A program made the translations under genes and the position numbers. From IMG/VR virus record IMGVR_UViG_3300027708_000036: 54,441 bases of DNA; one strand, given 5' to 3'. Under the pieces are notes generated by a model. It was not told the origin of the DNA. It saw only the letters and a list, made by a program, of their open reading frames with translations, and did no database searches. Source of the DNA: an uncultured virus (IMG/VR IMGVR_UViG_3300027708_000036). Lineage: Duplodnaviria; Heunggongvirae; Uroviricota; Caudoviricetes. Of the stretch, positions 1,419 to 49,513 are shown in pieces. Position 1 is the first letter of the stretch. Each line of letters opens with the position of its first letter.

Positions 1419-1443
1419 CTTGTAACTAAATACAAGGTATAAT
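1415..1443 (+). promoter_or_regulatory. sigma70-type promoter for the tmRNA, with a late-type CTAAATA in its spacer
   Basis: TTGACT (1415-1420), 17 nt, TATAAT (1438-1443). Confidence 0.8.
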
Positions 1444-1449
1444 GTAGGT

Positions 1450-1740
1450 TATTGCTGTATGAAGCAAAGAGAAAAGTGTTCTGGACGGGAGTTCGATTCT
1501 CCCCACCTCCACCAGAAGTGCATGTGTTAGATGAAAGAAACCATTTTATGGGCTCTAATGGGTGTACTTCTGATGGGGGTGACTAGGTTTCGACAGGGCA
1601 ACAAGTACACAAGTGGACAGCACGACACAGAGAGTCGTAAAAAGTAAAAAACCGTAAACGCAAACGACGCACAGTTCGCATTAGCAGCCTAAACACTGCT
1701 TAGGGTTTCGATAGGTTTCCTCGTAACAGAATAACCTATC
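1450..1740 (+). ncRNA. ssrA: Circularly permuted (two-piece) tmRNA; tag peptide ANDAQFALAA*
   Basis: The T-arm GGGAG-TTCGATT-CTCCC (1487-1503) and CACCTCC-A-CCA (1504-1514) lie upstream of the 5' acceptor strand GGGGGTG (1575-1581), which continues ACTAGGTTTCGAC. The stem has the G3:U pair. Tag ORF 1660-1692; terminal hairpin 1710-1740. Outer ends are approximate. Confidence 0.93.
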
Positions 1741-1764
1741 ACATTATTTTAAAAAGGGAATTAC

Positions 1765-2208
1765 ATGAAAAAAGTTATTTTAGTAACAGCATTAATGGCA
1801 TCGATGGGTGCACAAGCAGTTGAACTAGGTATTAATGCAAGTCGTGATACTGCCAATACAGATCGTACTGGTTATGGTATTACAATTGGACAGAAGTATG
1901 ACAAAGTAGGCATTACAGCTGGCTTTGATCAATACAAATCTGGAATTGATATGAACAAGTATAGTTTAGTTGCTTCTTATGATGTTACCAAAGTTGGTGC
2001 AGCAACCATTGCAGTTAAGGGTGGAGTTGCCTACTTAGATCAAAAGAATACAACTGATGGCTATGCAGCATTAGTTGGTGCAGGTGTTTCTTATCCACTA
2101 AGCAAACAAGTTGCTCTTACTGCTGATTATCGTTATCAAGCAGGACAATCTAAAGTTAGTTCTTTAGATGGTAGCACTATCATTGCTGGTTTGAAATATT
2201 CATTCTAA
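1765..2208 (+). CDS. Outer-membrane beta-barrel protein (OmpA-TM/Ail/Lom-like)
   Basis: Signal peptide (..MGAQA), alternating amphipathic strands, C-terminal GLKYSF BAM-type signal. Confidence 0.8.
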   Translation: MKKVILVTALMASMGAQAVELGINASRDTANTDRTGYGITIGQKYDKVGITAGFDQYKSGIDMNKYSLVASYDVTKVGAATIAVKGGVAYLDQKNTTDGYAALVGAGVSYPLSKQVALTADYRYQAGQSKVSSLDGSTIIAGLKYSF

Positions 2209-8748: not shown

Positions 8749-8778
8749 AAAATGGGATCTTTATGATCCCATTTTTTA
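8749..8778. terminator. Bidirectional terminator between convergent genes
   Basis: AAAATGGGATC-TTTAT-GATCCCATTTT inverted repeat. Confidence 0.8.
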
Positions 8779-10791
8779 TGCGTATCTAGTTTGTATGTAT
8801 CTAGATTGAGATGATTCTTGATTTCGAATCGGAGACTTAATAACTTGATTAGTACTAGAGTTATTAGTGACTGGAGCATTGACCACATTGGTCTTATTAC
8901 CACCACCTCCGCCAGCAGTAGCACTGGCATCAGCATTTGCTCTAGATCCACCTTCAACTGCACCAGCTGGACGTAACGCTGCACCCATTGCTGCAATTTT
9001 GTCAATCGGAAGTTCAGAGATTGCCTTAATTGTTTTAGTATCAATTGACGAGAATTTACCCAGACCAGTTGCCAAAGCCATAACACCATCACCAGCTGCT
9101 TTGATATCTTGTCCACGTTCACCCATCATCATAATCTGTTCAACTGGAGATTTTCCAGGAGTGACTAGATTTAAGAATCCACCAACTAGATTACCGATAC
9201 CAGCTGCAGCTGTTCCAGCACCGAACACTGCCATGCCTGCACCAATAGCTGCAAGACCAGCACCAACCATAAGAAGATTGTTACCATCTAGTTTGCCAAG
9301 TGTCTCTATTCCAGCAGTCATCTCGGCAAAACCTTTACCAACTGCCTGCATTGCTTCACCAATAACCCAAAGTGCAGCACCCATTGCACCTAAAGCAAGA
9401 GCACCAGTAAAGATTAATGGTGCAGCAGTACCAGCAATAGCACCGATAACTCCAAGACCAGCAACTGCAGCCATACCTTTAGCGATTGTTTCCCAGTCTA
9501 ATTCAGCGAATGTTCCAAGCGCAGCACCGATACCCCATGTTGCCAAAGCAAGAATACCCAGTGCTGCAGCACCAGCAATAATGTTACCCTTAACTTTATC
9601 TAAAGCCAGTGCAGCAATGACTAATCCACCAAGAGCAACCATACCCTTACCGATAGATTCCCATTCAATATTACCAAAGTTTTCGAATGCTTTAGAAGCA
9701 ACCCAAAGAGCACCAGCAATGGCAATTAAACCAATACCGAATTTCTTCATTCCTTCAAGTGCCTTACCAAACTTACCACCTCCACCAGAATCACCACCAC
9801 TTTCTTCAGCAGGTTTTGCCTTTTGCGCAGGAGAATCGCCACGAGTATTCTGTTCAATCTTAATCAAAAGATCGTCCATCTTTTCTTCGTGTTTGGCTTG
9901 TTCTAGTTCTCGCTCTTCATTTGCACCTGAATCAGCAAATTGTTGAGTAGGAGATTCTTTCTTAACTACTGAATCTGTTAAACTAGAAGAATCTCGTTTA
10001 ACCAATCCTGCTTTAAGATCACTCTTGGCATATTCATTGGATAAGTCGTCACGTTTACTTAGAAGTCGTTTACCTTCTTTGGTCTTTGAAAGATCGGCTT
10101 CAGACATCCCAGTATCTTTCTTAAACTGAGATAACTCTGACTCATTTCGTTTAATTTCTTTTGCTGTTTTATTTGCAGATTCAAATTTAGTTCCAAGAGT
10201 TTTGCGATCGTCTTCAGAACCAAGTTTACGTTGAGTTTGGATGAACTTCTCTTTAGCGATAGACTTATTGAAGATACCACCAACATTAAATGCCTTAAGA
10301 GCAGTAACTTTAAGAGCAGACATTGAACCAAAGTTATCCTTTAGTTTCTTACCCATATCTCTAAATTTATCACCCATCGTTTCAAAAGTCTGCATACCTT
10401 TTGCGATATTGGCGATTGCTTTGACTTCTTCCTTACGAAGTTGTAGATTCTCTTTTAGAGCATCGTTGGCTTCTTTGATCTTTAACTTTTCTTGATCTTT
10501 CAGTTTAATGGCTTCTAATTTTGCTTCATTAAACTGTTTGTCTTGTAGTTGAGCAATCAATGCTTCTTTAATATCTTTCATCATAGCCGACTGAGCAATT
10601 TGTTCAGCCAACTGTTGCTGGTTTGCGCCAGCCTGAGCCATAGAAGACTCTAATTGTTTGATGGCAGTTTCATTAGCCTTTGCCTGTTCTGAAAGTAACT
10701 TTGAAAAGGCAGCACTGTCCCATGCATTAACATTAGTTGTTGTGCTAACATTAACTACTGGTGGCTGATTTTTACTGTTTCGTTTTGCCAT
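8776..10791 (-). CDS. Tape-measure/baseplate hub protein (gp29-like)
   Basis: 671 aa; coiled-coil N-half, Ala/Gly-rich helical repeats (W-E-S/T-I-x-K-G-M), C-terminal NVVNAPV..N motif; follows gp26-gp51. Confidence 0.72.
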   Translation of the reverse strand: MAKRNSKNQPPVVNVSTTTNVNAWDSAAFSKLLSEQAKANETAIKQLESSMAQAGANQQQLAEQIAQSAMMKDIKEALIAQLQDKQFNEAKLEAIKLKDQEKLKIKEANDALKENLQLRKEEVKAIANIAKGMQTFETMGDKFRDMGKKLKDNFGSMSALKVTALKAFNVGGIFNKSIAKEKFIQTQRKLGSEDDRKTLGTKFESANKTAKEIKRNESELSQFKKDTGMSEADLSKTKEGKRLLSKRDDLSNEYAKSDLKAGLVKRDSSSLTDSVVKKESPTQQFADSGANEERELEQAKHEEKMDDLLIKIEQNTRGDSPAQKAKPAEESGGDSGGGGKFGKALEGMKKFGIGLIAIAGALWVASKAFENFGNIEWESIGKGMVALGGLVIAALALDKVKGNIIAGAAALGILALATWGIGAALGTFAELDWETIAKGMAAVAGLGVIGAIAGTAAPLIFTGALALGAMGAALWVIGEAMQAVGKGFAEMTAGIETLGKLDGNNLLMVGAGLAAIGAGMAVFGAGTAAAGIGNLVGGFLNLVTPGKSPVEQIMMMGERGQDIKAAGDGVMALATGLGKFSSIDTKTIKAISELPIDKIAAMGAALRPAGAVEGGSRANADASATAGGGGGNKTNVVNAPVTNNSSTNQVIKSPIRNQESSQSRYIQTRYA

Positions 10792-10794
10792 CTA

Positions 10795-10977
10795 TTACAT
10801 CCTCTTTTTGGATTCGATTCTTTTCTTTTCTTCTTCAAGATATTGGATTAACATGAAGACATATACTTCTCGTTCGAAAGGTATCATTTCTTCTAACTCA
10901 GCCAAAGAGTATTTGTGGTACTGCATCATCGCAAAATTCATTTTATAATAGTTCTCGAGCGATTCATGACTGAGCAA
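10795..10977 (-). CDS. 51: Baseplate hub assembly protein gp51-like (probably expressed by -1 frameshift from gp26)
   Basis: SLENYYKMNFAMMQYHKYSLAELEEMIPFEREVY; only a TTG start, with no suitably spaced RBS. Confidence 0.85.
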   Translation of the reverse strand: MLSHESLENYYKMNFAMMQYHKYSLAELEEMIPFEREVYVFMLIQYLEEEKKRIESKKRM

Positions 10978-10979
10978 TA

Positions 10980-11702
10980 CTAAAAAAAACTTTGGAGTCC
11001 CTCCAATACCTTAATATGATGTCTGCTACATACAGGGCAATCATATTCAATGTGTTTTCTAACTTTCGGCATTGTCTCAAAGAATTGTTGAATTTTTAAG
11101 AACTGGTCTGAAGTTAAATTTTCAATAAACGCTAATAATTCTTGTTTAGTGCTTTCTTTAGCATAAAATAGTTCTTCACCATCATAAATGTAATCAATAG
11201 ATAAAGCCATAATATCAAAGACTGTATCTAAGTCATTAGTATCAAAACCTTCTAACTTTTTAATAACATCAACTGTAGGATATTTCATCACTACACCAAC
11301 ATCATTAAATAACGCAATATTGTTTGTATGTCCCTCACCCTTTTCAACTGTTATTGTGGATAAATCAACACGAACAGTTGCTTTGGCTTTTTCATTCTGT
11401 TCACCATGATCTAAATCACAGGAGAATGTTAAATCAACATTTTCACCAACAGACTTACCACGGATCTGAGTAAACATATACTCTAGATCAAATGTTGCTA
11501 ATTTCTCAACATCAATTTTATCTTGCACGCAAGTCTTAACGATTCCCTTTAGGGTTTCAATCATTGTTACTACATCTTCGGATTGCTGAGCAATCAAAAG
11601 TGCTTTTTCCTCTTTAACGAGGAATGGACGATATCTTACTGTCGCTCCACTTGACGGCACAACCATTGTATAGGTTGGCGTATTCATAATTGGCAAAGCC
11701 AT
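10980..11702 (-). CDS. 26: Baseplate hub subunit/chaperone gp26-like
   Basis: MALP...RPFLVKEEKALLIA, FDLEYMFTQIRGKSVGE, FFETMPK, CxxC, LEGLQSFF. Confidence 0.92.
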   Translation of the reverse strand: MALPIMNTPTYTMVVPSSGATVRYRPFLVKEEKALLIAQQSEDVVTMIETLKGIVKTCVQDKIDVEKLATFDLEYMFTQIRGKSVGENVDLTFSCDLDHGEQNEKAKATVRVDLSTITVEKGEGHTNNIALFNDVGVVMKYPTVDVIKKLEGFDTNDLDTVFDIMALSIDYIYDGEELFYAKESTKQELLAFIENLTSDQFLKIQQFFETMPKVRKHIEYDCPVCSRHHIKVLEGLQSFF

Positions 11703-11704
11703 AA

Positions 11705-12118
11705 TTATTCTCCTTTAGACATATTCTTGATTAACTTATTCAATTCAGCAGTGCTACCTGTAAAGATAACATTGTTATTCGTCACTTCTTTTCTAGACCC
11801 TTCTTTCGGTGCATCTAGTTTTTGCTTCTGTTGATGTAGATCCAATAACTGTTGGTTTATATCAGCCAACTGTTTCATTAGATTTCCAACAACTTCAAAT
11901 GCTCTTGGATGCTCAGACTGCATAGCCACATCAAGTGACTTCTGTAGTGCTTCCTGTCCTTGCTGTAATAAAATACGAAGATTGTTTCGAGATATTTCAA
12001 AGTCATCTTCAATCTTATTATTCGATGGGATTATGACTTCCCCTTGTTTTGTAATCACTTCATTTTTTGTCATTGGTTCTATATCAAACACCTCAGACAA
12101 ACTATCATCAATTTTCAT
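11705..12118 (-). CDS. Terminase small subunit gp16-like
   Basis: DDFEISRNNL..GQEAL..SEHPRAFEVVGNLMK..LLDLH..NNNVIFTGSTAEL matches the T4-type gp16 pattern. Confidence 0.8.
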   Translation of the reverse strand: MKIDDSLSEVFDIEPMTKNEVITKQGEVIIPSNNKIEDDFEISRNNLRILLQQGQEALQKSLDVAMQSEHPRAFEVVGNLMKQLADINQQLLDLHQQKQKLDAPKEGSRKEVTNNNVIFTGSTAELNKLIKNMSKGE

Positions 12119-33278: not shown

Positions 33279-33602
33279 ATGGCGAACACTTTTAAGAATG
33301 CACTAGCACGAAACGTCGGAACTTCCGCTGTTACTGTGTATACTGCACCATCTAGTAAAAACTCAATCTGCATCGAACTAGACGTTTGTAATACCACAAA
33401 CGCTGGTGTTACTGTTGATGCTTATATTACTTCTAGTTCAGCAAACTACTACATCGTTAAGGGTGCTCCAGTTCCTGTTGGTGGTTCACTACAGATTATT
33501 GCTGGACAGAAAATCGTTCTGTCAAATACAGATGCTCTTAAAGTTGTTTCATCAACGGCTTCGTCATTAGACATTATAGCCAGCATTTTGGAAGATGTCT
33601 GA
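33279..33602 (+). CDS. Small beta-sandwich virion protein (paralogue of 39416)
   Basis: MANTFK..YTAP..VPVGGSL; aligns by eye with 39416. Confidence 0.7.
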   Translation: MANTFKNALARNVGTSAVTVYTAPSSKNSICIELDVCNTTNAGVTVDAYITSSSANYYIVKGAPVPVGGSLQIIAGQKIVLSNTDALKVVSSTASSLDIIASILEDV

Positions 33603-33604
33603 TC

Positions 33605-34807
33605 ATGCCGATTCAAAAAGGACCAGCTAATCTAGGTACAGGAAGTGTTGATAGCACTGAGTTATCCAACACACTAGATCTTTCTGCCAAAACAGTAACA
33701 TACAGAACAATCGTTGCTGGTGATATTGCTTCTAATGCAATCACTCCAGCCAAGATGGCTAATAGTGGTGCCGAGTTTGGTATGCGTAACCGCATCATCA
33801 ATGGTGCGATGGTGATTGACCAGCGTAATGCGGGGGCTAGTGTAACTCCAGTTAACGCACAAACCACATTAGATAGATGGCAAGGGGGATTAAGTCAAAC
33901 AGGAAAATACACCATTCAACAATCTACAACCGCACCTACAGGTTTTAGAAATTCATTATTAATAACTTCAACTTCTGCGTATAGTTTGTTGGCGGGAGAT
34001 AATTTTCAATTAAGTCAACCGATTGAAGGATACAATATCGCAGATTTCAACTGGGGTACTGCTTCTGCTTCTTCAGTTACTTTATCATTTTGGGTTCGTT
34101 GCAGTTTGACTGGCACATTTGGGGGTGCTATATACAATGGTTCGGCAAATAGATTTTATCCATTTAGTTATACCATTTCATCTGCTAACACATTTGAATA
34201 CAAAACAATAACTATTACTGGAGATACTTCTGGAACATGGTCAACTGATAATTCTACTGGCATAAGAGTTATGTTTTGCTCTGCTGGTGCTGGTTCAACT
34301 TATTTAGGAACTGCTGGCGCATGGACAAGTAGTGTTATTTTGGGGGTTACTGGGCAAACAAACCTTGTGGCAACTAATGGCGCTACTTGGTATGTAACAG
34401 GCGTACAACTAGAAAAAGGCAGTACCGCAACATCGTTTGATTACAGACCTTTTGGGACTGAGTTGGATTTGTGTCAAAGATATTTTACAAAAAGTCAAAG
34501 TTGGGCAGCTGCCGTTACTGCTGGTGAAGGACAAGGTTTAATTGCGTGGAACGCAGTTACTACATCTGTAATAGCGGGGTGGGCTTCACATAAAGTATCA
34601 ATGAGAACACAACCAACTATTACCATCTATAGACAAGACGGCACAATTAATGCAACTAATAGATTTACTGATGGCGTTAATACTACTGGAACAGCTACTT
34701 GTCCAGAACCAGGAATAGAAGGATTTAGATATGTGTCAAATGCATCTAGTGGATTTACTGCTGGAACATATTATCAATTTTACTATACAGCATCTGCGGA
34801 GTTATAA
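33605..34807 (+). CDS. Putative fibre/adhesin, NRIINGAM family copy 1
   Basis: NRIINGAMVIDQRNAG...TGVQLEKG..CQRY...SAEL. Confidence 0.75.
   Translation: MPIQKGPANLGTGSVDSTELSNTLDLSAKTVTYRTIVAGDIASNAITPAKMANSGAEFGMRNRIINGAMVIDQRNAGASVTPVNAQTTLDRWQGGLSQTGKYTIQQSTTAPTGFRNSLLITSTSAYSLLAGDNFQLSQPIEGYNIADFNWGTASASSVTLSFWVRCSLTGTFGGAIYNGSANRFYPFSYTISSANTFEYKTITITGDTSGTWSTDNSTGIRVMFCSAGAGSTYLGTAGAWTSSVILGVTGQTNLVATNGATWYVTGVQLEKGSTATSFDYRPFGTELDLCQRYFTKSQSWAAAVTAGEGQGLIAWNAVTTSVIAGWASHKVSMRTQPTITIYRQDGTINATNRFTDGVNTTGTATCPEPGIEGFRYVSNASSGFTAGTYYQFYYTASAEL
33788..33851 (+). repeat. Conserved 5' DNA block of the NRIINGAM adhesins (also at 39815-39878 and from 47165)
   Basis: AACCGCATCATYAATGGTGCGATGGTRATTGACCAGCGTAATGCGGGGGCTAGTGTWACT. 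Confidence 0.9.
34406..34465 (+). repeat. Conserved internal DNA block (also at 40442-40501, partly at ~47803-47850)
   Basis: CAACTAGAAAAAGGCAGTACCGCAACATCGTTTGATTACAGACCTTWTGGGACTGAGTTG; 59/60 identical between copies 1 and 2. Confidence 0.9.
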
Positions 34808-34963
34808 ATGTATAAATTATTAAAATCAATAAGAGGTGATGTAACGGCAGTTTTTCGTTTATCTGATGGTGCATCTATTCCTTTTAATCCAGACAACACA
34901 GACTACCAAGAATACTTAAAGTGGCTTGCTGAAGGTAATACTCCAGAACCTGCTGACGAATAA
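34808..34963 (+). CDS. Small partner protein (putative fibre chaperone) copy 1
   Basis: Hand-translated: MYKLL...[28 protein letters not shown]; below the ORF-track cutoff. Confidence 0.8.
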
Positions 34964-34989
34964 ATAAAGAATAACAGAAGAGTAAATCA

Positions 34990-36912
34990 ATGGCATATAT
35001 CGGATCACCACCAGCATATCAAGCATCTGGAGTTCGCCCACGTGATGAGTTCACGGCAGACGGCACACAGATTTGCTACCCATTATCACAATCTGTTCCA
35101 GGTTCTTTTGAATCAGGTGTAACGATTGTTCTTGATAACGTGCCACAACAACCAGTTGAAGCATTTACTGTTGTTGATACTACAACACTAACTTTTACTG
35201 CTGTTACTGGCACATTTACAAAGAACGAAACAGTTACTGGTGGAACCAGTTCTGCAACTGGTACTGTCTTAAAAGTCAATCTTGGAAGCATCGTTGTTCG
35301 TGGACTTACTGGTACATTTGCTAGTGGTGAGACGATTACTGGTGGTTCTTCTTCTGCAAGTGGAACTTCTGCTGTTGTTAGCACAAATACAGGTTCTGGC
35401 ATTTTATTCTCAGAAATCCCAGCATCTGGTGCATTCCTTTATGTTGTGCATGAAGGTAATGCAACTTATAATCTAGTTCCAGCTGCAGCATCAGTTTCAG
35501 CTACTCAGTTGGCAGACAATCTAAGAAACTTTACTGTTGATACATTTACTGGTGATGGTTCTACAACTGCATTTAATCTTTCAGCAATTCCTGCATCTGG
35601 AAATGCGATTCTAGTTTCTGTTGATGGTATTTTCCAAACAGTTACTACAAACTATACACTGTCTTCAAATACAGTAACATTTACTGCTGCTCCAGATTCT
35701 GGCTCAGCAATTACAATTATTCATCTTGGATTTAGCACTGCATCTAGAACTGGTCTAGTTGATGGTTCAGTTACTCCAGCCAAGTTAAGTTCTGGTGCTC
35801 CACTATGGAATACTTCGAGCAATCTAGGTGTTGGTGTTACTCCAGTGACATTTAAAGGTACACTACAAGTTGGTACTATTGGTTATACTGATACTGGTAT
35901 CCTTGCTGGATTTGCTTCAAGTGTTGCTGGATATAATCAGATTATTTTACAGAATACTAACTCTGGTTCTACATCATCCACAAACTTCAATGTGTCAAAT
36001 AACAATGGCACAACAACTACTAACTATGGTGAGTTTGGTATTAACTCATCTGGATTTACTGGCACTGGCTCATTTAGTCAGGCTGGATATACTTACTTGG
36101 CATCAGCATCAACTGATCTAGCCATCGGTACTTACGGTTCAAATGCTATTCACTTTGTTGTAAATAGTGGTGCAACTGATGCAGCAATTATTGATACTGC
36201 TGGTCAAATTGGTATTGGTGCAACTCCAGCTACATGGGGTACGAGTAAAGCACTTCAAATTGGTTTAGCTGGTGCTTTTAGTGGTCAAACAGGTGCTAAA
36301 ACTGCAGAAGTTACATCCAACGCTTACTTAAATAGTGGTTGGAAATATCTTACTAGTGGCGATAAGGCAACTTTATATTATCAATATGCTGGTGCTCATA
36401 CTTTCAATGCTTCAGCAGCAACAGGTTCTGCTGGTAATGGTATTACATGGGATGCTGGTACAACAATAAATCCTTATGGTGTCGGTGTTGGTGGTGCAAC
36501 ACCATCTAGTGGTATCGGTATCGCATTCCCTGCAACTCAAGTCGCTTCTACTGATCCAAACACGCTAGATGATTATGAAGAAGGTACTTTTACAATGACA
36601 TATAATGCAGGAACAATTTCTAGTCAAAGTGGTCAATACACAAAAGTTGGTAGATTAGTAACTGCTACTTTTCAAATTAATTGGACTGCCTCTGGAACAT
36701 CTTTAGGGCAAATTGGTGGACTTCCATTTAATGTATCTACAATTAACTACGGTGGAACTCATTCAAGAGAATGGTATAATACTGGAAATTCCGTACAATG
36801 TGTAATGAGTACTGGTGCAGCAACTATGGATTTATTCTTTTACAATGGTGGTAGAGGAGTATCAAATGGATCTATATACGGTGTATCAGGAACAGTTGTT
36901 TATAATACGTAA
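34990..36912 (+). CDS. Putative tail fibre (FTGDG modules; TLDDYEEG C-terminal domain)
   Basis: Gly/Ser/Thr-rich; DDYEEGTF..YTKVGRLVT..GLPF. Confidence 0.72.
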   Translation: MAYIGSPPAYQASGVRPRDEFTADGTQICYPLSQSVPGSFESGVTIVLDNVPQQPVEAFTVVDTTTLTFTAVTGTFTKNETVTGGTSSATGTVLKVNLGSIVVRGLTGTFASGETITGGSSSASGTSAVVSTNTGSGILFSEIPASGAFLYVVHEGNATYNLVPAAASVSATQLADNLRNFTVDTFTGDGSTTAFNLSAIPASGNAILVSVDGIFQTVTTNYTLSSNTVTFTAAPDSGSAITIIHLGFSTASRTGLVDGSVTPAKLSSGAPLWNTSSNLGVGVTPVTFKGTLQVGTIGYTDTGILAGFASSVAGYNQIILQNTNSGSTSSTNFNVSNNNGTTTTNYGEFGINSSGFTGTGSFSQAGYTYLASASTDLAIGTYGSNAIHFVVNSGATDAAIIDTAGQIGIGATPATWGTSKALQIGLAGAFSGQTGAKTAEVTSNAYLNSGWKYLTSGDKATLYYQYAGAHTFNASAATGSAGNGITWDAGTTINPYGVGVGGATPSSGIGIAFPATQVASTDPNTLDDYEEGTFTMTYNAGTISSQSGQYTKVGRLVTATFQINWTASGTSLGQIGGLPFNVSTINYGGTHSREWYNTGNSVQCVMSTGAATMDLFFYNGGRGVSNGSIYGVSGTVVYNT

Positions 36913-36971
36913 TTTAAATTAACTAACCCATATTAGGTTAGTCGGACTTTTTAACAACAGGAGAAATCAAA

Positions 36972-37229
36972 ATGGCTTTAACAAAAGAACAAGTAATCGA
37001 CAAAGTAGAAGTAGTGGAAAACGGTACTCTACAAGTTCGTGAAGTAACAAGAATTATGGAAGATGGTAAGCAATTATCTTCTTCTTATCATCGTTGGAGT
37101 TTTGCACCGAACAGTGATGTTTCTGCAATGCCTGCGAATGTACAAGCAATTGCTGCAGCTGCATGGACTGCTGAAGTTATCGCTGCATACGAAGCACAAG
37201 TAGCTGCAAATGCTACACCAAGCGTATAA
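36972..37229 (+). CDS. Small hypothetical protein (putative partner of the upstream fibre)
   Basis: AGGAG RBS; DKVEVVENG..QVR..SYHR..VQAIAAAAWT. Confidence 0.7.
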   Translation: MALTKEQVIDKVEVVENGTLQVREVTRIMEDGKQLSSSYHRWSFAPNSDVSAMPANVQAIAAAAWTAEVIAAYEAQVAANATPSV

Positions 37230-37232
37230 ATA
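37225..37232 (+). promoter_or_regulatory. T4-type late promoter
   Basis: TATAAATA upstream of 37262. Confidence 0.65.
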
Positions 37233-37261
37233 GTTAGAACTAGAAACCACAGAGACCAAAG

Positions 37262-38749
37262 ATGGCAATATCAAGAATAAATTCAAGAGCAATCCTAGAC
37301 GGAAGCGTTGTTGCTGCTGAGGTAGCTGATGGTGCTATTACACCTGCTAAACTGCAGACTGGTGTTGATTTTACTGTCAATACGGTAAGAGTTGGTCTTG
37401 GTGCTGGTGCAGTTTCAAGTAATACTACATTAGGTGCATCTGCTCTAGATACAAACTCTAGCGGTGCTCAAAACGTAGCCATCGGATATACAGCACTACA
37501 GAAAAATACAACTGCCAGTGAAAATACTGCAGTTGGTCATGGTTCTTTAACAAATAATACAACTGGTGCAGAATCGGTTGCAATTGGTAGATTAGCATTA
37601 TATACAAATACAACTGGTGGGCAAAATACTGCAGTTGGTAAACAAGCACTTGCTGGAAACACCACAGCATCTAATAACACAGCAGTGGGTTATCAAGCTG
37701 GTTACTCAAATACAACTGCTTCTGGAATTACTGCTGTTGGAAATCAAGCTGGTTATAGTGTTGCAGGCAGAGATAATACATTTATTGGCGTAAGTTCAGG
37801 TTTGTGGCAAACATCAGGGCTTGAAAATACTGCTGTTGGTAAAAATTCTTTTGTAGGAACCAACGGAAGCGCAACTGGTGGTGGTAATAGTGCATTTGGT
37901 GTAGGAACTTTAAGTGCTAATACTAGCGGTAGTTATGATGTTGCGCTAGGTAACTATTCTTTAACATCAAACACAAGCGGTGGATACAATACAGCAGTTG
38001 GTTATCAATCTTTACAAGCCAACACCACAGCCTCTCAAAACACAGCAGTAGGTTATCAAGCGGGGTATACAAGCGTACTTGGAACAAATAACACCTTTAT
38101 TGGTTATGGTGCTGGTTATACATCTAATGCTGCTACAACTACTGGTTATAACACTGCTGTTGGTGCTTATGCAGGATACAGTTTAACCACAGGAACACGC
38201 AATACCTTTATTGGTTCATTTCAATCTGGCGGTACTGCTGGCTCTGGTTCTGCTGTAACTACTGGAGGTGCCAACACTATTATTGGTGCTTACACAGGAA
38301 ATGGTAGTGGCTTAGATATTCGCACATCAAGTAACCGCATTGTAATATCAGATGGTGACGGCAGCCCAAGGCTCTATTATGACAACAACGGTGCTATTCA
38401 ATCTACAAGTGCAGTAGGTAATGGTACTTTATATCCAGCTTATTTCTGTCGTGCTTGGGTAAACTTTACTGGATCAAGTGGTTCAATTAACGGAAGTGGA
38501 AACGTAAGTTCTGTTACTAGGAATGCAACAGGTGATTACACAATTAATTTAACAACAGCTATGCCAGATGCAACATACGCAATCACTGGCTGCTTAAAGC
38601 CAACAACAGGACAAGCTGGAAATAATGCTAGAGATGTTCACGTAAAATATGATGCTACTCCAACTACTTCTTCATTCAGAGTTAATACAGCTACCGCTAG
38701 TGCTGGATATGAAGACCCAGACAATGTTTATTTAGCAATTTTTAGATAA
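37262..38749 (+). CDS. Putative fibre with 14-aa NTAVG beta-roll (YadA-head-like) repeats
   Basis: Tandem N-T-A-V-G-x-x-A/S repeats; C-terminal CRAWVNF..NVSSV...GDYTIN domain. Confidence 0.75.
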   Translation: MAISRINSRAILDGSVVAAEVADGAITPAKLQTGVDFTVNTVRVGLGAGAVSSNTTLGASALDTNSSGAQNVAIGYTALQKNTTASENTAVGHGSLTNNTTGAESVAIGRLALYTNTTGGQNTAVGKQALAGNTTASNNTAVGYQAGYSNTTASGITAVGNQAGYSVAGRDNTFIGVSSGLWQTSGLENTAVGKNSFVGTNGSATGGGNSAFGVGTLSANTSGSYDVALGNYSLTSNTSGGYNTAVGYQSLQANTTASQNTAVGYQAGYTSVLGTNNTFIGYGAGYTSNAATTTGYNTAVGAYAGYSLTTGTRNTFIGSFQSGGTAGSGSAVTTGGANTIIGAYTGNGSGLDIRTSSNRIVISDGDGSPRLYYDNNGAIQSTSAVGNGTLYPAYFCRAWVNFTGSSGSINGSGNVSSVTRNATGDYTINLTTAMPDATYAITGCLKPTTGQAGNNARDVHVKYDATPTTSSFRVNTATASAGYEDPDNVYLAIFR

Positions 38750-38758
38750 GAGACAGAC

Positions 38759-39178
38759 ATGGAAAAAGTAATTATTTATACAAACGAAAACGGAAATGTA
38801 AGCATAACTTTTCCTGCGCCAGAATTTTTAGAAACCCACATAATTGAAGATGTGTTGGCTAAAGACTGTCCTGATCATGCTATTATCGTTGATGATTCTA
38901 CACTACCAACAGATCATGATTTTTTTAATGCTTGGAGACTAGTTGATGGTGTAGTTTCTGTTAATTTAGATGCTGCTAAAGAAATTAAAAAAGAAGAATT
39001 AAGATTTGCAAGAACTCCACTATTACAAATACAAGATGTAGCGTTCCAAAGAGCACTTGAGACTGGTGCTGATACTTCTTCAATCGTTGCTGAGAAACAA
39101 AGACTTAGAGATATTACAAAATTCGCAGATGCAGCTACTACACTAGAACAATTAAGAGCAATCTCCATAGACGAATAA
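38759..39178 (+). CDS. Putative tail fibre assembly chaperone
   Basis: FFNAW, R.PLL...D, EKQRLRDIT. Confidence 0.7.
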   Translation: MEKVIIYTNENGNVSITFPAPEFLETHIIEDVLAKDCPDHAIIVDDSTLPTDHDFFNAWRLVDGVVSVNLDAAKEIKKEELRFARTPLLQIQDVAFQRALETGADTSSIVAEKQRLRDITKFADAATTLEQLRAISIDE

Positions 39179-39197
39179 ATAAACAAAGAGGTTAAAC

Positions 39198-39401
39198 ATG
39201 GCACTCACAAGAATAGAAACTGATGGCATTAAAGACTTGGCAGTCACTACACCAAAGATTGCCAATGATGCCATCACAACAGCAAAAATTGCAACTGGTG
39301 CAGTTACCAGTTCAGACATTCTAGACGGCACAGTAGATTCAGTAGATGTAACCAGCAACGTGCTTGATGGTTCACTTGCTTACTCTCTAGTGTTCTCTTA
39401 A
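39198..39401 (+). CDS. Small structural protein (AVT/AITTAKIA repeats; hydrophobic C-terminus)
   Basis: GAGG RBS; ORF track. Confidence 0.65.
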   Translation: MALTRIETDGIKDLAVTTPKIANDAITTAKIATGAVTSSDILDGTVDSVDVTSNVLDGSLAYSLVFS

Positions 39402-39415
39402 TCAAGGAAAATTAA

Positions 39416-39742
39416 ATGGCATCCGCATTCAAATCAGCTGCAACTACTCTGTCAACTACTAGTAGAACAGATCTTTATACTGCACCAGCGTCAACTACAA
39501 GTGTGGTGCACAATCTTACTATCGCCAATATCGATGGAACAAACAGCGCAACTATTACTATTGAAGTGTACAAAAGTGCTGCAACTACATACTACAAACT
39601 GGCATACCTAGTTCCAGTGCCAGCAGGTTCAACATTGATTTTTGATAAGCCAATCAATCTAGAAACTGGCGACAAGATCAGTTTGACTGCATCTGCGTCA
39701 AATGCTCTTTCTGGTTTTGTTTCAGTAATGCAGATCACTTAA
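39416..39742 (+). CDS. Small beta-sandwich virion protein (paralogue of 33279)
   Basis: MASAFK..LYTAP..VPAGSTL. Confidence 0.7.
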   Translation: MASAFKSAATTLSTTSRTDLYTAPASTTSVVHNLTIANIDGTNSATITIEVYKSAATTYYKLAYLVPVPAGSTLIFDKPINLETGDKISLTASASNALSGFVSVMQIT

Positions 39743-39751
39743 GGATAAGAC

Positions 39752-40831
39752 ATGGCTCTTACTCAAGTTCAGAGTGGAATTTTAGCAGATAGTACCCAGA
39801 CATACGGTATGAAAAACCGCATCATTAATGGTGCGATGGTGATTGACCAGCGTAATGCGGGGGCTAGTGTTACTCCAGCTTCTAATCCAACTTATACATT
39901 GGATAGATGGGTTTACACATATTCACAAAATTCTAAATTTAGCGTTCAACAAAACGCTGGTTCTGTAACTCCACCCGCAGGATTTACAAACTATATTGGG
40001 TTTACTTCTTTAGCGGCAACATCATTAGGCTCAACTGACTATTTTATTTTGCGTCAAATGGTGGAAGGCTTTAATACGGCAGACCTCGCTTTTGGAACAG
40101 CATCAGCCAAAACCATCACCCTCAGTTTTTGGGTGCGTAGTTCTTTAACTGGTACTTTTGGTGGTGCAATTTCCAATTCGGGTGAAAGCAGAAATTACCC
40201 TTTTACTTACACAATTTCTTCTGCAAACACTTGGGAACAAAAGTCAGTAACCATTGCTGGTGATACATCAGGAACTTGGTTGACTACCAATGGTATTGGC
40301 ATTGAATTAAGCATAGGTCTTGGTGTTGGTTCTACTTATAGTGGAACTGCTGGTGCGTGGACAAGTTCGCTTTTTGTTTGTGCTACAGGTGCTACTAATG
40401 TGGCTGGCACAAACGGAGCAACCTTCTACATTACTGGTGTGCAACTAGAAAAAGGCAGTACCGCAACATCGTTTGATTACAGACCTTATGGGACTGAGTT
40501 GCAGTTATGTCAGAGGTATTTTGCTAAATTGAGTGCTGCTGGTGCAGCATATACAGCATTTGGTGTTGCTAGAGGAAACGGTGCATCAAGTGTTTATGCT
40601 TATCTTAAATACCCAACAACAATGCGTTCAGCCCCTACAACCGTGCAATCTAATACAGGAGTTAATTTTCCTAGTCAAGCCTCAATAACTGCGATAACTG
40701 CAACGTATGACGGTCTTGATTCGTCTGGGGTTGAAATGTCAACATCAGCAACTATTGGTGCTGGTATTTGTGCGTTATGGAATGCGAATAATAATGGTGC
40801 TGCATTTGTTACTTTAAGCGCAGAACTTTAG
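39752..40831 (+). CDS. Putative fibre/adhesin, NRIINGAM family copy 2
   Basis: Same motifs as 33605. Confidence 0.75.
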   Translation: MALTQVQSGILADSTQTYGMKNRIINGAMVIDQRNAGASVTPASNPTYTLDRWVYTYSQNSKFSVQQNAGSVTPPAGFTNYIGFTSLAATSLGSTDYFILRQMVEGFNTADLAFGTASAKTITLSFWVRSSLTGTFGGAISNSGESRNYPFTYTISSANTWEQKSVTIAGDTSGTWLTTNGIGIELSIGLGVGSTYSGTAGAWTSSLFVCATGATNVAGTNGATFYITGVQLEKGSTATSFDYRPYGTELQLCQRYFAKLSAAGAAYTAFGVARGNGASSVYAYLKYPTTMRSAPTTVQSNTGVNFPSQASITAITATYDGLDSSGVEMSTSATIGAGICALWNANNNGAAFVTLSAEL

Positions 40832-40840
40832 GAGACATGA

Positions 40841-41002
40841 ATGTATAAACAATCTAAATCTTTTATGGAAAATATGAAGATAGTATCAGTAATTCGTTTG
40901 TCTGATGGCGCATCTATTCCTTTTGACCCTAACAACACAGACTACCAAGAATACCTAAAGTGGGTTGCAGAAGGTAATACACCACTCCCAGCAGAGGAAT
41001 AA
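40841..41002 (+). CDS. Small partner protein copy 2
   Basis: MYKQ...[28 protein letters not shown]. Confidence 0.8.
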
Positions 41003-41010
41003 ATAAGTAT

Positions 41011-42051
41011 ATGTACTTAGGCAATCAACCACTCTCAGCGTCTTACCTAACTGATTACTTCAGTGGTAACAACACGACTGTAGCATTCACTCTTTCAAGA
41101 GCACCAGTATCTGCTTCTTCTGTTATCATCACTATTTCTGGTGTTAAACAGGCAGCATCCACATACGGTGTTTCTGGAACAACTCTAACATTCTCTGCTG
41201 CACCTCCAACTGGCACAAACAATATTGAAGTGTTACATCTTGGTGTTCAGCCAGATACAGTTGTTCAACCATCATACAGAACAATCACAGAATTTACAGC
41301 GACTGCAGGACAGACTACTTTCTCTCCTGCTAGTTACACTGCTGGATACATTGATGTGTATCGCAATGGTGTTAAGTTAGGATCTGCAGACTTCACAGCA
41401 ACAAATGGTACTAGCGTAGTATTGGCAAATGCCTGTGCAGCTGGTGACTATGTTCGCTTTGAAGGATTCTTGATCACAACATTTAATAATGCGATTGCCA
41501 ATACCAATGGTGCTGTTGGTGATAGTTTAATTGCTTCAGTTTCTGCAAGTAAGTTGACAGGAACACAAACCATACCAAGAGGCACATTGCCTACGGGGTC
41601 TGTGTTGCAGGTGGTGCAAACTGTTAAAACAGATACTTTTTCAACAACATCAGGCTCTTTAACTGATATAACTGGAATGTCTGTAAGTATTACTCCCACA
41701 AGTGCAACAAGTAAAATTTTAGTGCAGTATTTTATTGGAGAAATTGGTCCTGGAAATGATGAAGCACTTGGTATTGCATTATTAAGAGGCTCTACTGTTA
41801 TTGGTGCTGGAGCAACTGCGGGAAGCCGTACTTTAACTTCTACCGCTGCAGTTTATGCAAATGATAGAGGTGCTCCTCAAGCATTTTGTTTTTTAGATTC
41901 ACCAGCAACTACATCTTCAACAACTTATAAATTACAAATTTATGTAAATGGCGGAAACACAGTTCATGTTAATAGGTCTTCAACAGACACAGACAGCACA
42001 ACATATGCAAGAACAGCATCAACAATTACAGCTATGGAGATTGCGGCATGA
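41011..42051 (+). CDS. Putative fibre protein (GSVLQVV...MEIAA C-terminal domain)
   Basis: FSGNNTT module; DSPATTSSTTYKLQ. Confidence 0.7.
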   Translation: MYLGNQPLSASYLTDYFSGNNTTVAFTLSRAPVSASSVIITISGVKQAASTYGVSGTTLTFSAAPPTGTNNIEVLHLGVQPDTVVQPSYRTITEFTATAGQTTFSPASYTAGYIDVYRNGVKLGSADFTATNGTSVVLANACAAGDYVRFEGFLITTFNNAIANTNGAVGDSLIASVSASKLTGTQTIPRGTLPTGSVLQVVQTVKTDTFSTTSGSLTDITGMSVSITPTSATSKILVQYFIGEIGPGNDEALGIALLRGSTVIGAGATAGSRTLTSTAAVYANDRGAPQAFCFLDSPATTSSTTYKLQIYVNGGNTVHVNRSSTDTDSTTYARTASTITAMEIAA

Positions 42052-42320
42052 ACCACAAAGCAATTTATGCTCTTTACACAAATGTTGTCACTATTGATGA
42101 CGGCACTGGCGCTTTTGATAAAGACGGCAACAAAGTAACTATTGATATGTTGGCAGTTAACGCATGGGTTGACCCCAAAGCATATGTAGCCAAGCGTGCG
42201 TCAGAATATCCTACCATCGGTGATCAATTAGATGCACTATGGAAAGGTGGCGATGCAGCTGCCGAAATGCTTGCAAAAGTACAAGCAGTAAAGAACAAGT
42301 ATCCTAAGGGAACAGAATAA
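42048..42320 (+). CDS. Small partner protein (EYP..DQLD..VKNKYPK family)
   Basis: ATGA overlap with the upstream gene; paralogue of 44379. Confidence 0.72.
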   Translation: MNHKAIYALYTNVVTIDDGTGAFDKDGNKVTIDMLAVNAWVDPKAYVAKRASEYPTIGDQLDALWKGGDAAAEMLAKVQAVKNKYPKGTE

Positions 42321-43405
42321 TGACACAAGCAGTCACATTAGCGCAAATAGGTTCTAATAATGGAACCTTCCGCAATAAGATTATTAATGGTGCAATGGTT
42401 ATCGATCAGCGCAATGCTGGTGGAAGTGTCACACCATCTGGTGACCAATATACTGTAGACAGATGGCAAATTGCAATCGGTAGTTCTGGTGCATGGGTAT
42501 CTGTACAACAAAATTCTGGTAATGCTCCAGTCAACCAAGGTTTTGCTCAATGTCTAAAACTAACTTCTACTGGTGCCAATACACCTTCTAGTGGCTCAAT
42601 TCATGTGTTACAACAAAGAATAGAAGGTAACAATATTGCAGATTTATGTTTTGGTACTGCCAATGCAAAAACAATTACATTATCATTCTGGGTTAATCAA
42701 AGCGTGACTGGTACATATGGTGGTGTTGTGACTAATAATGGTATAACTAGAGCGTATGGTTTTACTTATACTATCAATTCAGCAAATACTTGGGAATATA
42801 AAACAGCAACAATTCCTGGAGATACAACTGGCACTTGGGTAATTGATAATGGTATTGGAATGAGAGTTATATTTAACACAGGTAGTGGATCTGGACAATG
42901 CATTACAGCTGGAAGTTGGCAAACTGGTACTGGTGGTATATATGGTGTTTCTGGTGTACAAACGCTTTCTTCAACATCTGGTGCTACTATGTATCTTACT
43001 GGTGTCCAGTTAGAAGCTGGTACTGTACCAACATCATTTGAACTTCGTTCTTATAGTAAAGAACTATTGATGTGCCAAAGATACTACGAACTAACTGGTT
43101 TTGGTAATATTGCTATTTTTGAATCTGGTTCAACATATGTTATGAACTTAGTTTATAAAGTCACTAAACGAGCGCAACCATCAATTGGTCTGTATTGGAC
43201 TTCAAATATTCGTGTTAGACAATTTGGTACTTCCGACAGAGATGCTTCATCTCCAGGTGTGGGTAGTACAGCAGGTAGCTCAAATGGTGGATATATTAAA
43301 ATAAATGGATTTGGCTCGGTTGGGGCAACTAGTTCGGTAGCAGGTATTGGGTTTACTACTTCGTCAGAAAATGGCGATTTATTTTCCATTAGTGCGGAGT
43401 TATAA
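42320..43405 (+). CDS. Putative fibre/adhesin, NRIINGAM family copy 3
   Basis: NKIINGAMVIDQRNAG..CQRYY..SAEL. Confidence 0.75.
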   Translation: MTQAVTLAQIGSNNGTFRNKIINGAMVIDQRNAGGSVTPSGDQYTVDRWQIAIGSSGAWVSVQQNSGNAPVNQGFAQCLKLTSTGANTPSSGSIHVLQQRIEGNNIADLCFGTANAKTITLSFWVNQSVTGTYGGVVTNNGITRAYGFTYTINSANTWEYKTATIPGDTTGTWVIDNGIGMRVIFNTGSGSGQCITAGSWQTGTGGIYGVSGVQTLSSTSGATMYLTGVQLEAGTVPTSFELRSYSKELLMCQRYYELTGFGNIAIFESGSTYVMNLVYKVTKRAQPSIGLYWTSNIRVRQFGTSDRDASSPGVGSTAGSSNGGYIKINGFGSVGATSSVAGIGFTTSSENGDLFSISAEL

Positions 43406-43407
43406 AA

Positions 43408-43557
43408 ATGTATAAATTAACTAAAGAAAACGATTCTGTTGTAAAAGATAATATATTGAGTATTCCATTTGCTGAAGATAATACAGACTATCAAGAATAT
43501 CTAAAATGGGTTGCTGAAGGTAACACTCCACAACCAGCAGACGAACCACAGGAATAA
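43408..43557 (+). CDS. Small partner protein copy 3
   Basis: MYKL...[31 protein letters not shown]. Confidence 0.8.
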   Translation: MYKLTKENDSVVKDNILSIPFAEDNTDYQEYLKWVAEGNTPQPADEPQE

Positions 43558-43560
43558 CAA

Positions 43561-44382
43561 ATGGCTTACTTAGGTCGTGTAAAACCAACTGAAACTACAT
43601 CCAGTGTATTAAGATCTACATACACTGGTAATGGTTCAACCACAACATATGCTCTTCCTGGTCCAGTTGCCAATGAGACATCAATTATCGCAACTATCAA
43701 TGGTGTGACTCAGCAAGACGCTGCATACTCTACTGATGGTTCAAATATTATCTTTGTTGCTGCACCTGCACTTGGTGATAGCATCGAAATCCGTACACTC
43801 TCTGCAGTTGCCATGAGTTATGCTCCAAGTGCTGGCTCTGTTGTTACTGGTATTATTGCTGATGGTGCAGTTACTACTGCAAAGATTAATGACGCTTCTG
43901 TGACTGGTGCAAAACTAGCCACTGGTGCAGCTGTTGCAAATATTGGTGCTAGAGCCATTACTGTTGGTCAAGTTCCTGCTGGATCTGTGATTCAAGTAGT
44001 TTCATCTCAGCCTATCAATCTTTCATCTACAACTGCAAACGCTGTTTTAACATCTTTAAGTATAACACCATCAAGTGCTTCATCAAGAATACTTCTTTTT
44101 GGTAGCGTTGAAGGTGAAAGAAATGGTGGTTCTGCTGGCAATTATATTTTTGGACAATTAAGAAAAAATACAACAAATATACGAGGATTTATGAACGCTG
44201 CTGGTTATCAACAAACAACAGGTGCTAGAAATTATAATTCATTTGCATATATCGATTCTCCTTCAACAACATCGGCTATAACATATGATTTATGGGTTGA
44301 CCACACAACTTCAGGTGCAGCATCTGGCATAACTTGGGGTTGGTACTCAGCATCAATTCATGCATTGGAGATTGCATCGTGA
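43561..44382 (+). CDS. Putative fibre protein (GSVIQVV...LEIAS C-terminal domain)
   Basis: YTGNGSTT module; DSPSTTSAITY; paralogue of 41011. Confidence 0.7.
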   Translation: MAYLGRVKPTETTSSVLRSTYTGNGSTTTYALPGPVANETSIIATINGVTQQDAAYSTDGSNIIFVAAPALGDSIEIRTLSAVAMSYAPSAGSVVTGIIADGAVTTAKINDASVTGAKLATGAAVANIGARAITVGQVPAGSVIQVVSSQPINLSSTTANAVLTSLSITPSSASSRILLFGSVEGERNGGSAGNYIFGQLRKNTTNIRGFMNAAGYQQTTGARNYNSFAYIDSPSTTSAITYDLWVDHTTSGAASGITWGWYSASIHALEIAS

Positions 44383-44687
44383 AATCACAAATTAGAGGAC
44401 ATTTAATCGCTGAAGCAATAAGTTCTTTGCGCCCACTATCTTTGTATACGGTAGGTTCAGATGAAAGTATTAATTGGATTGATACAGTTCAAACTCAACC
44501 AACACAAGCAGAAATTGAAGCAGAAATTATCCGTCTTCAAGCTGAGTATAATACTAAACAATATCAAAGACTTCGTGCTGCAGAATACCCATCCTACGCA
44601 GACCAGTTTGATACAATTTTCCATGAAGGTATTGATGCATGGAAAGCACAGATTCAAGCAGTTAAAGACAAATATCCTAAGGTCTAA
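44379..44687 (+). CDS. Small partner protein (EYP..DQFD..VKDKYPK family)
   Basis: GTGA overlap with the upstream stop; GGAG RBS. Confidence 0.72.
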   Translation: MKSQIRGHLIAEAISSLRPLSLYTVGSDESINWIDTVQTQPTQAEIEAEIIRLQAEYNTKQYQRLRAAEYPSYADQFDTIFHEGIDAWKAQIQAVKDKYPKV

Positions 44688-44690
44688 GAA

Positions 44691-45737: not shown

Positions 45738-45739
45738 AA

Positions 45740-45895
45740 ATGTATAAACAAGTAAAATCACCTGCTGGAATTATCTTAGATTATGTTATCAGAGAAACTG
45801 GTGGATGGATTCCATTCGATCCAGATAATAGAGACTACCAAGAATATCTAAAATGGTTAGAAGCAGGTAATACTCCGCTTCCTGCAGACGAATAA
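45740..45895 (+). CDS. Small partner protein copy 4
   Basis: MYKQ...[28 protein letters not shown]. Confidence 0.8.
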   Translation: MYKQVKSPAGIILDYVIRETGGWIPFDPDNRDYQEYLKWLEAGNTPLPADE

Positions 45896-45924
45896 ATAAC
45901 AGAGAACATCACAGAGAATAACCT

Positions 45925-46776: not shown

Positions 46777-46784
46777 GGTAAAAA

Positions 46785-48214: not shown

Positions 48215-48217
48215 CCT

Positions 48218-49512: not shown

Positions 49513-49513
49513 G

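What the first reader, a model, noticed from the sequence alone, without database searches (positions are those of the whole stretch)
10795..11702. Probable programmed -1 frameshift fusing gp26 and gp51 directly upstream of the tape-measure gene
Seen: on the minus strand gp26 ends GGAGG-GACTCCAAAG-TTTTTTTT-AG-TA-TTG-CTC. The U8 run (plus 10982-10989) reads AGT TTT TTT TAG in frame 0 and TTT TTT TTA GTA TTG CTC AGT CAT in frame -1, which is the gp51 frame. gp51 has no ATG before its SLENYY motif. The GGAGG (11004-11000) is 22 nt from the TTG, too far for initiation, but exactly 10 nt upstream of the slippery run. Known: an internal SD at about this spacing stimulates -1 frameshifting (E. coli dnaX, IS911), and lambda-type tail chaperones gpG/gpGT are made by -1 frameshift just before the tape measure gene. 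Inference: this T4-like phage makes gp26 (240 aa) and a ~300-aa gp26-51 fusion, a G/GT equivalent. I am not aware of this being described for T4-like phages.
Basis: partly seen in the sequence, partly recalled or inferred. Interest (0 to 1): 0.85.

Follow-up and report, generated by a model that had tools for sequence, protein, structure and literature searches.

The report
Frameshifted gp26/gp51 tail assembly chaperone
One tail-assembly gene of this uncultured freshwater T4-like phage very probably makes a short and a long protein because some ribosomes slip back one base on a conserved run of U's; the signal is real, but this trick appears to have been described for T4-like phages in 2022, so this is a new example and not a new principle.

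Summary
gp26 (240 aa) ends on T-TTT-TTT-TAG; the gp51-like frame is -1 in 187 of 188 scorable junctions. T-TTT-TTY is kept in 41 of 45 clusters, against 1 of 41 at a second Phe-Phe site in the same gene; 25 of 45 have no usable start codon. The first 95 residues fold like lambda-type tail assembly chaperones. T4 gp51 carries the same tail fused in frame, T4 gp26 lacks it. Predicted products: 240 and 302 aa. No protein-level proof exists here. Prior art: Vladimirov, Gautam and Davidson 2022 (not held; seen through citing passages) is cited for polyT -1 slippery sites in T4-like chaperone genes and for the two-gene alternative. This scan also found the same junction before on other DNA (295 notes). 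Still open: the SD-like GGAGG 10 nt upstream is enriched beyond codon need but is not universal, and here it is also one arm of a 6-bp hairpin before U8; no 3' structure exists in this clade.

The parts
10980..11702 (-). gp26-like gene, short form (TAC-N / gpG equivalent), 240 aa
   Evidence: PF12322 E 1.3e-61, phrog_150 E 6.3e-66; model pLDDT 87.8; residues 1-95 match tail assembly chaperone folds, Z 7.0-7.5
11000..11004 (-). SD-like GGAGG, 10 nt upstream of the heptamer; possible frameshift stimulator
   Evidence: sequence; synonymous enrichment across relatives; spacing 10 nt in 22 of 22 clusters that have it, of 80; function not shown
10992..11006 (-). 6-bp hairpin that contains the GGAGG and ends 2 nt before U8 (terminator-like); limited to this clade
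   Evidence: -5.7 kcal/mol; present in close relatives, no excess over the family
10983..10989 (-). slippery heptamer U_UUU_UUU (Phe239-Phe240), predicted -1 shift site
10980..10982 (-). TAG stop of gp26, directly after the heptamer
   Evidence: 0, 1 or 2 codons after the heptamer in 30, 49 and 1 of 80 clusters
10795..10983 (-). gp51-like -1 frame (TAC-C / T equivalent): 62 residues added to give a 302-aa long form
   Evidence: phrog_634 E 1.2e-25 and the end of phrog_150; matches the C-terminus of T4 gp51; length
8776..10791 (-). 671-aa probable tape-measure protein, the presumed client
   Evidence: phrog_4372 E 2.7e-17 over residues 347-536; starts 3 nt after the gp51-frame stop

Best explanation
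One gene, two proteins. Most ribosomes stop at TAG and release the 240-aa gp26 (short chaperone). A minority, with tRNA-Phe on UUU-UUU, slip back one base, re-pair on UUU-UUU in the -1 frame and add 62 residues, giving a 302-aa long chaperone equal in plan to T4 gp51. Shown: frame relation, conserved heptamer, lack of a conserved start, chaperone-like fold of the N-terminal part, T4 gp51 as an in-frame long form. Inferred: that the slip is ribosomal, that the adjacent stop and the upstream GGAGG help it, its low rate, and, by analogy with lambda, that the shared part coats the tape-measure protein while the added part recruits the tail tube protein.
For: (1) Frame: 79 of 80 scorable junctions -1 with an unbiased tblastn (81 sequences, 1 ran off its contig); 187 of 188 with HMMs (20 seeds were -1 by construction); 8 of 8 further isolates by eye. 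(2) Heptamer under DNA-level selection, 70% clusters, n=45: T-TTT-TTY 41, T-TTT-TTG 1, other 3; first Phe codon TTT in 42 of 42 (25.8 expected); preceding base T in 42 of 45 (25.0 expected); control Phe-Phe 30 codons upstream has T-TTT-TT in 1 of 41; at 60%: 25 of 28 against 0 of 24. Other window genes: 0 of 17 Phe-Phe pairs; whole record 3 of 56. (3) No conserved start: 13 different codons at stop+2, ATG in 8 of 45; no ATG/GTG/TTG before the conserved block in 25 of 45; start codons at the window's TTG position in 8 of 42 and at its ATG position in 11 of 42. (4) The -1 frame opens at or one codon before the heptamer in 15 of 80 clusters, which pins the shift site; spacing from heptamer to the conserved block is identical in 42 of 45. 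(5) T4 gp51 = PF12322 over 1-201 plus a tail that matches this -1 frame (E 1e-5 pairwise; profile 20-22 bits against at most 6.7 in 1000 shuffles); T4 gp26 has no such tail. (6) The record holds one gp26 and one gp51-like hit, no separate long gene. (7) The 4 of 48,161 chains with Z of 5 or more are 3FGX, 2OB9, 3KLU and 5IR0; the first three are called tail assembly chaperones in PMC9603447. (8) T run is only 6 long in 56 of 80 clusters, too short for the 9-base slippage described in PMC5009743.
Against: No peptide, ribosome profile or reporter result exists here. The -1 relation alone does not discriminate, since a TAATG/TGATG stop-start overlap gives the same frame, and 8 of 45 clusters have exactly that. 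Clusters are related, so expected counts overstate significance. No 3' stimulator in the window (z +0.25 to +1.17) or in a 36-sequence consensus (0 pairs). Ackermannviridae and Vibrio phage K364 lack a tandem-slip heptamer. A gp13-like gene of the same record has the same heptamer near its end with no fusion partner, so the motif alone is not proof. Fold scores are under 8, and Foldseek found nothing at E 0.001 or better (2OB9 at rank 21). Likeness of the T4 gp51 N-terminal part to gp26 rests on Pfam/PHROG; my own profiles gave 13-17 bits and hhalign only 31% probability out of register. The record is about 81% complete, so a second copy could be missing. U_UUU_UUU is a weak site in E. coli compared with A_AAA_AAG (PMC5009743).
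Confidence: 0.88

Rival explanations
1. Same two proteins, but made by transcriptional slippage: RNA polymerase adds a U on the T8, perhaps helped by the hairpin just upstream, and ordinary translation reads through.
For: The window has U8 and a 6-bp hairpin ending 2 nt before it, kept in close relatives such as L009, L017, L020, L024, L026, L027; T runs of 8 in 19 of 80 clusters.
Against: Run length is 6 in 56 of 80 clusters, including L023 and L026 that have the hairpin; efficient slippage is reported for runs of 9 (PMC5009743); the run is locked to Phe-Phe codons in X_XXY_YYZ phase; no family-wide hairpin excess (45 of 300 synonymous resamplings as strong).
Confidence: 0.05
2. Two separate genes: gp51 is started on its own by coupled re-initiation at TTG 10977 (60 aa) or ATG 10941 (48 aa), as public records annotate it.
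For: 15 of 19 annotated isolate records list a separate small gene and none shows a joined CDS; 8 of 45 clusters have ATG overlapping the stop; many genes of this phage lack an SD.
Against: 25 of 45 clusters have no start codon before the conserved block; annotated starts differ between records and 4 of 19 leave the frame unannotated; residues upstream of the ATG are conserved as protein (Leu in 40 of 42 at position 11); it does not explain the invariant T-TTT-TT or the T4 fusion.
Confidence: 0.05
3. The hairpin plus U8 is a weak intrinsic terminator or pause that tunes downstream tape-measure expression; the GGAGG and the U run serve that, and the frameshift is incidental.
For: Flagged as terminator-like at 11006-10992; local fold z -2.3 on 19 nt.
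Against: 5 sites found against 2.7 +/- 1.3 expected; stem has 3 G-C pairs; hairpin absent from most of the family while the heptamer stays; GAG occurs without its pairing partner in 31 of 39 clusters. It may coexist with the frameshift.
Confidence: 0.02

Closest known systems
TAC-N/TAC-NC genes of T4-like phages (Vladimirov, Gautam, Davidson, Virology 2022, 566:9-15, PMID 34826709). Not held: title and citing passages seen only
   Same: PMC12846349 cites it for polyT -1 slippery sequences in TAC-N genes of T4-like phages; PMC10885494 cites it for T4-like phages that carry a short gene and a fused long gene. From recall of its abstract, not from a call: frameshifting is conserved in several T4-like groups and T4 uses genes 26 and 51.
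   Different: This uncultured freshwater clade is probably not among its genomes. Whether it treats the SD-like element, hairpins or the Ackermannviridae variant I could not see.
Lambda gpG/gpGT -1 frameshift and its conserved counterparts (PMC5009743, passages)
   Same: Short and long forms from one gene by a -1 shift near its end, upstream of the tape-measure gene; N-terminal fold like HK97 gp13.
   Different: gp26 is 240 aa with extra domains beyond residue 95; the added part is 62 aa; site is U_UUU_UUU/C; the 2016 review still lists T4 as the exception.
Phage T4 gp26 (208 aa) and gp51 (249 aa), listed as hub assembly chaperones (PMC3004832, passages)
   Same: Same family PF12322; gp51 ends in the segment encoded here by the -1 frame.
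   Different: T4 has two divergent genes on opposite strands and no shift site; some genetic work places gp26 in the hub itself.
SD-stimulated -1 frameshifts (E. coli dnaX; PMC5009743, passages)
   Same: SD-like element within the 9-14 nt spacing given for -1 shifts (10 nt here).
   Different: dnaX uses A_AAA_AAG and a 3' stem-loop; the window has U_UUU_UUU, an adjacent stop and no 3' structure.

Membership tests
Frameshifted tail assembly chaperone (G/GT; TAC-N/TAC-NC) | Two overlapping frames joined by a conserved frame relation | tested here: met
   -1 in 187 of 188, 79 of 80, 8 of 8
Frameshifted tail assembly chaperone (G/GT; TAC-N/TAC-NC) | Conserved slippery heptamer at the end of the first frame | tested here: met
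   T-TTT-TTY in 41 of 45 clusters, control 1 of 41
Frameshifted tail assembly chaperone (G/GT; TAC-N/TAC-NC) | Second frame has no conserved start of its own | tested here: met
   no start in 25 of 45; 13 codons at stop+2
Frameshifted tail assembly chaperone (G/GT; TAC-N/TAC-NC) | Lies directly upstream of the tape-measure gene | tested here: met
   in this window, on one PHROG match over part of the protein; not so in RSP15, K364, May, GG32
Frameshifted tail assembly chaperone (G/GT; TAC-N/TAC-NC) | TAC fold in the short form | tested here: met
   residues 1-95 against 3FGX Z 7.5 (rmsd 3.9, 85 aligned), 2OB9 Z 7.3 (4.0, 84), 3KLU Z 7.0 (4.3, 85); next unrelated row 4.4. Scores under 8; Foldseek not significant
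Frameshifted tail assembly chaperone (G/GT; TAC-N/TAC-NC) | Long form is made, at a low ratio, by ribosomes | not testable with these tools
   needs mass spectrometry, profiling or a reporter
Frameshifted tail assembly chaperone (G/GT; TAC-N/TAC-NC) | Short form binds the tape-measure protein, added part binds the tail tube protein; neither is in the virion | not tested
T4 gp26/gp51 family (PF12322, phrog_150, phrog_634) | Profile match of gp26 and of the gp51 tail | tested here: met
SD-stimulated bacterial -1 frameshift (dnaX type) | SD-like element 9-14 nt upstream, kept beyond protein need | tested here: inconclusive
   10 nt in 22 of 80 clusters; GAG 20 of 32 against 9.4 expected; anti-SD pairing -5.96 against -4.51, 0 of 500 resamplings; absent in RSP15, K364, Ackermannviridae; hairpin alternative
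SD-stimulated bacterial -1 frameshift (dnaX type) | 3' stem-loop or pseudoknot | tested here: not met
   none in the window or the consensus; present in part of the family; pseudoknots not searched

The most novel reading that the evidence does not exclude
T4-like phages keep one shift site but swap its stimulators by clade. This freshwater clade would use an adjacent stop codon plus an internal SD 10 nt upstream that can also fold into a hairpin, with no 3' structure; clades with one codon between heptamer and stop use a 3' hairpin (26 of 49 clusters with z below -2, against 2 of 30). That would make this an SD- and stop-driven chaperone frameshift, perhaps with a transcriptional share on U8, and a natural series for testing how the short-to-long ratio is set and how T4 replaced it with two genes. 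I found no paper on these stimulators (listing only), but could not read Vladimirov 2022.
Probability: 0.35. Interest if true: 0.45.

Novelty: new member of a known kind. Interest (0 to 1): 0.27.

Why it matters
It corrects annotation: the small 'gp51, baseplate hub assembly catalyst' of cyanophages, pelagiphages and their relatives is very probably not a protein of its own but the tail of a long gp26; none of 19 annotated records inspected joins them. It supports, with a fold match and codon-level controls, the 2022 proposal that T4 gp26 and gp51 are the G and GT chaperones. It offers a short cassette for testing SD- and stop-dependent slipping on a U run. The principle itself appears to be published.

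Tried and rejected
Sequencing or assembly error at the T8: rejected. 3' RNA stimulator in the window: none. Single-sequence fold: pLDDT 42, not used. Foldseek against PDB: nothing at E 0.001 or better. Search for longer proteins that contain the gp51 part: 22 candidates, none scored, weak evidence, and it missed T4 gp51 itself. Alignment-based locus scan: not possible, too little conservation; the RSP15 scan returned only RSP15. RNA evidence: only contigs; the X15 contig 10960-11194 has no inserted U but has 22 bases on one side of the run, and contigs drop rare variants, so it says nothing on slippage or expression; RNA runs with shares of 0.05-0.16 were not used otherwise. Tree of 32 proteins: T4 gp26 and gp51 fall outside the 28 one-gene rows, midpoint root only, long branch to gp51, so no order of events is claimed. 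Promoter scans: at chance level. Complex prediction of the gp51 part with the tube protein: not available, so no result. Paper searches. PMC10175313 and PMC13274417 (passages), PMC8785237, PMC12859696, PMC11526630 (passages) added nothing on gp26. Christie 2002 on P2 not held. No supplements were read; those of PMC10885494 and of Vladimirov 2022 may list such sites.

Full report
What is there. The window is part of a 130,972-base virus record, about 81% complete, of a T4-like phage found in freshwater runs. On the minus strand run a tail-tube-like gene (gp54 type), a small terminase gene, gp26 (11702-10980, 240 aa), a short gp51-like frame and a 671-aa probable tape-measure gene. gp26 ends on T-TTT-TTT-TAG. 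The gp51-like frame is -1, its first TTG is at 10977 and its first ATG at 10941; GGAGG lies 10 nt before the heptamer. The T8 is the only run of eight in the window and the only T8 in the record, and a contig from another DNA run matches it without change.

Frame relation. I fetched 80 viral loci with gp26, 80 with S-PM2 gp26, 15 with a Kuttervirus gp26, 1 with RSP15 and 14 named records. With tblastn, 79 of 80 scorable junctions were -1. With HMMs over 190 loci plus the window, T4 was set aside, L068 ran off its contig, the T4-type Klebsiella phage had no downstream part, and 187 of the 188 left were -1 (20 seeds of the profile were -1 by construction). The exception, L006, lacks 82 bases at the junction. 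Eight more isolates were all -1 by eye. This alone does not decide, because a stop-start overlap of one base gives the same frame.

What decides. After dropping 2 loci with partial gp26, 185 proteins gave 80, 45 and 28 clusters at 90, 70 and 60% identity. Of 45, 41 have T-TTT-TTY, one T-TTT-TTG and three other forms. The first Phe codon is TTT in 42 of 42 (25.8 expected from each gene's own usage), and the base before it is T in 42 of 45 (25.0 expected). A second invariant Phe-Phe 30 codons upstream has T-TTT-TT in 1 of 41. Other window genes have the heptamer at 0 of 17 Phe-Phe pairs, the whole record at 3 of 56. No start is conserved: 13 different codons sit at stop+2, ATG in 8 of 45, and 25 of 45 have no ATG, GTG or TTG before the conserved block. 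The -1 frame is conserved as protein from the heptamer on, with fixed spacing in 42 of 45, and opens at or one codon before the heptamer in 15 of 80 clusters. The clusters are kin, so the expected counts overstate significance, but the pattern spans Kyanoviridae, Straboviridae, Pootjesviridae and others.

T4 as natural control. T4 gp51 matches PF12322 over residues 1-201 and then ends in a segment that matches this -1 frame; T4 gp26 is the domain alone. The tail match is clear (20-22 bits against at most 6.7 in 1000 shuffles). The N-terminal likeness of gp51 to gp26 is strong in Pfam and PHROG but weak in my own profiles (13-17 bits). The record holds no separate long gene. I noted this reading, before looking at earlier scan notes.

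Fold. A model from 71 sequences (pLDDT 87.8) matched, among 48,161 chains, four at Z 5 or more: 3FGX, 2OB9 (HK97 tail assembly chaperone), 3KLU and 5IR0, all over residues 1-95. PMC9603447 calls the first three tail assembly chaperones (passages). Scores are under 8 and Foldseek was not significant; the viral library returned gp26 relatives.

Stimulators. The Glu codon of the conserved Leu-Glu-Gly is GAG in 20 of 32 clusters against 9.4 expected; Glu before Gly is GAG in 3 of 35 cases elsewhere in the window and 18 of 75 in the loci. Anti-SD pairing is stronger than synonymous resampling (-5.96 against -4.51 kcal/mol, 0 of 500; stronger in 34, weaker in 9 of 45). GGAGG occurs in 22 of 80 clusters, always at 10 nt, inside the 9-14 nt range given in PMC5009743 (passages). 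Against: it is absent from most clusters, and in the window it is one arm of a 6-bp hairpin before U8, kept in close relatives but not in excess over the family. There is no 3' structure in the window or in the consensus. Clades with one codon between heptamer and stop often have one (26 of 49 against 2 of 30; p 0.04 at 70% clusters; mononucleotide shuffles); an S-PM2-like set of 15 shows a 6-pair core with one compensatory column.

Mechanism. Most likely (0.88): ribosomes with tRNA-Phe on UUU-UUU slip back one base in a minority of passes and add 62 residues, giving 240-aa and 302-aa proteins (about 27 and 35 kDa). By analogy with lambda (PMC5009743) the shared part binds the tape-measure protein and the added part the tube protein; this step is untested. 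Polymerase slippage (0.05) is weakened by T runs of only 6 in 56 of 80 clusters; independent initiation (0.05) by the missing starts; a terminator role (0.02) may coexist.

Novelty. PMC10885494 (passages) and PMC12846349 (passages) cite Vladimirov, Gautam and Davidson 2022 for T4-like phages with a short and a fused long chaperone gene and for polyT -1 slippery sites in TAC-N genes of T4-like phages. That paper is not held; I saw its title and these citations, and recall that its abstract names T4 genes 26 and 51. The 2016 review still had T4 as the exception, and none of 19 annotated records joins the two frames. Earlier notes of this scan report the same junction on other genomes (295 findings, 141 naming the paper); they are not independent support. 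Verdict: real, well supported, a new member of a described kind; the stimulator question is what remains open.

Noticed in passing
window 1422-1783 (+): Permuted (two-piece) tmRNA gene called by ARAGORN; the record also carries 29 tRNA calls at G000:C1:31416-36041, outside the window, including tRNA-Phe (GAA).
   Followed up: no
G000:C1:108529-109485 (+), outside the window: A gp13-like neck gene (name recalled from its position and sequence, no family scan) ends with the same heptamer two codons before its stop, but the -1 frame closes after a few codons and the next gene is in the same frame: a heptamer without a fusion.
   Followed up: partly
L092, L093, L274, L280, L175-L189 (Ackermannviridae): gp26 ends on an Ile-Phe-Ile codon run with only four T's, no tandem-slip heptamer; the -1 frame is conserved yet unannotated in May, GG32 and PP35; some have ATG over the stop, others ATT. 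Single-tRNA slip or re-initiation is open.
   Followed up: partly
L082, L095-L116, L073, L077, L135, L136, L164: Different 3' hairpins 4-10 nt after the heptamer in marine clades, absent from the window's clade.
   Followed up: partly
L275 (Pseudoalteromonas phage XG4), L089 (RHph_I9), L090 (K364): Variant shift sites: T-TTT-TTA, T-TTT-TTG, and a five-T form.
   Followed up: no
L006:2150-2330: 82 bases are missing just after the T run, which removes the start of the gp51 part; assembly error or dead variant.
   Followed up: no
window 33279-51560 (+): A series of tail-fibre-like genes, five matching phrog_4492, two preceded by similar 107-108-aa genes: a multi-fibre cassette.
   Followed up: no
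window 11705-12118 (-): A small terminase subunit gene (phrog_445) sits between the tube-initiator gene and gp26, far from a probable large subunit at G000:C1:111161-112738 (identity recalled from sequence).
   Followed up: no
L081:303-590 (T4): T4 also annotates an in-frame internal product 26' at the 3' end of gene 26.
   Followed up: no
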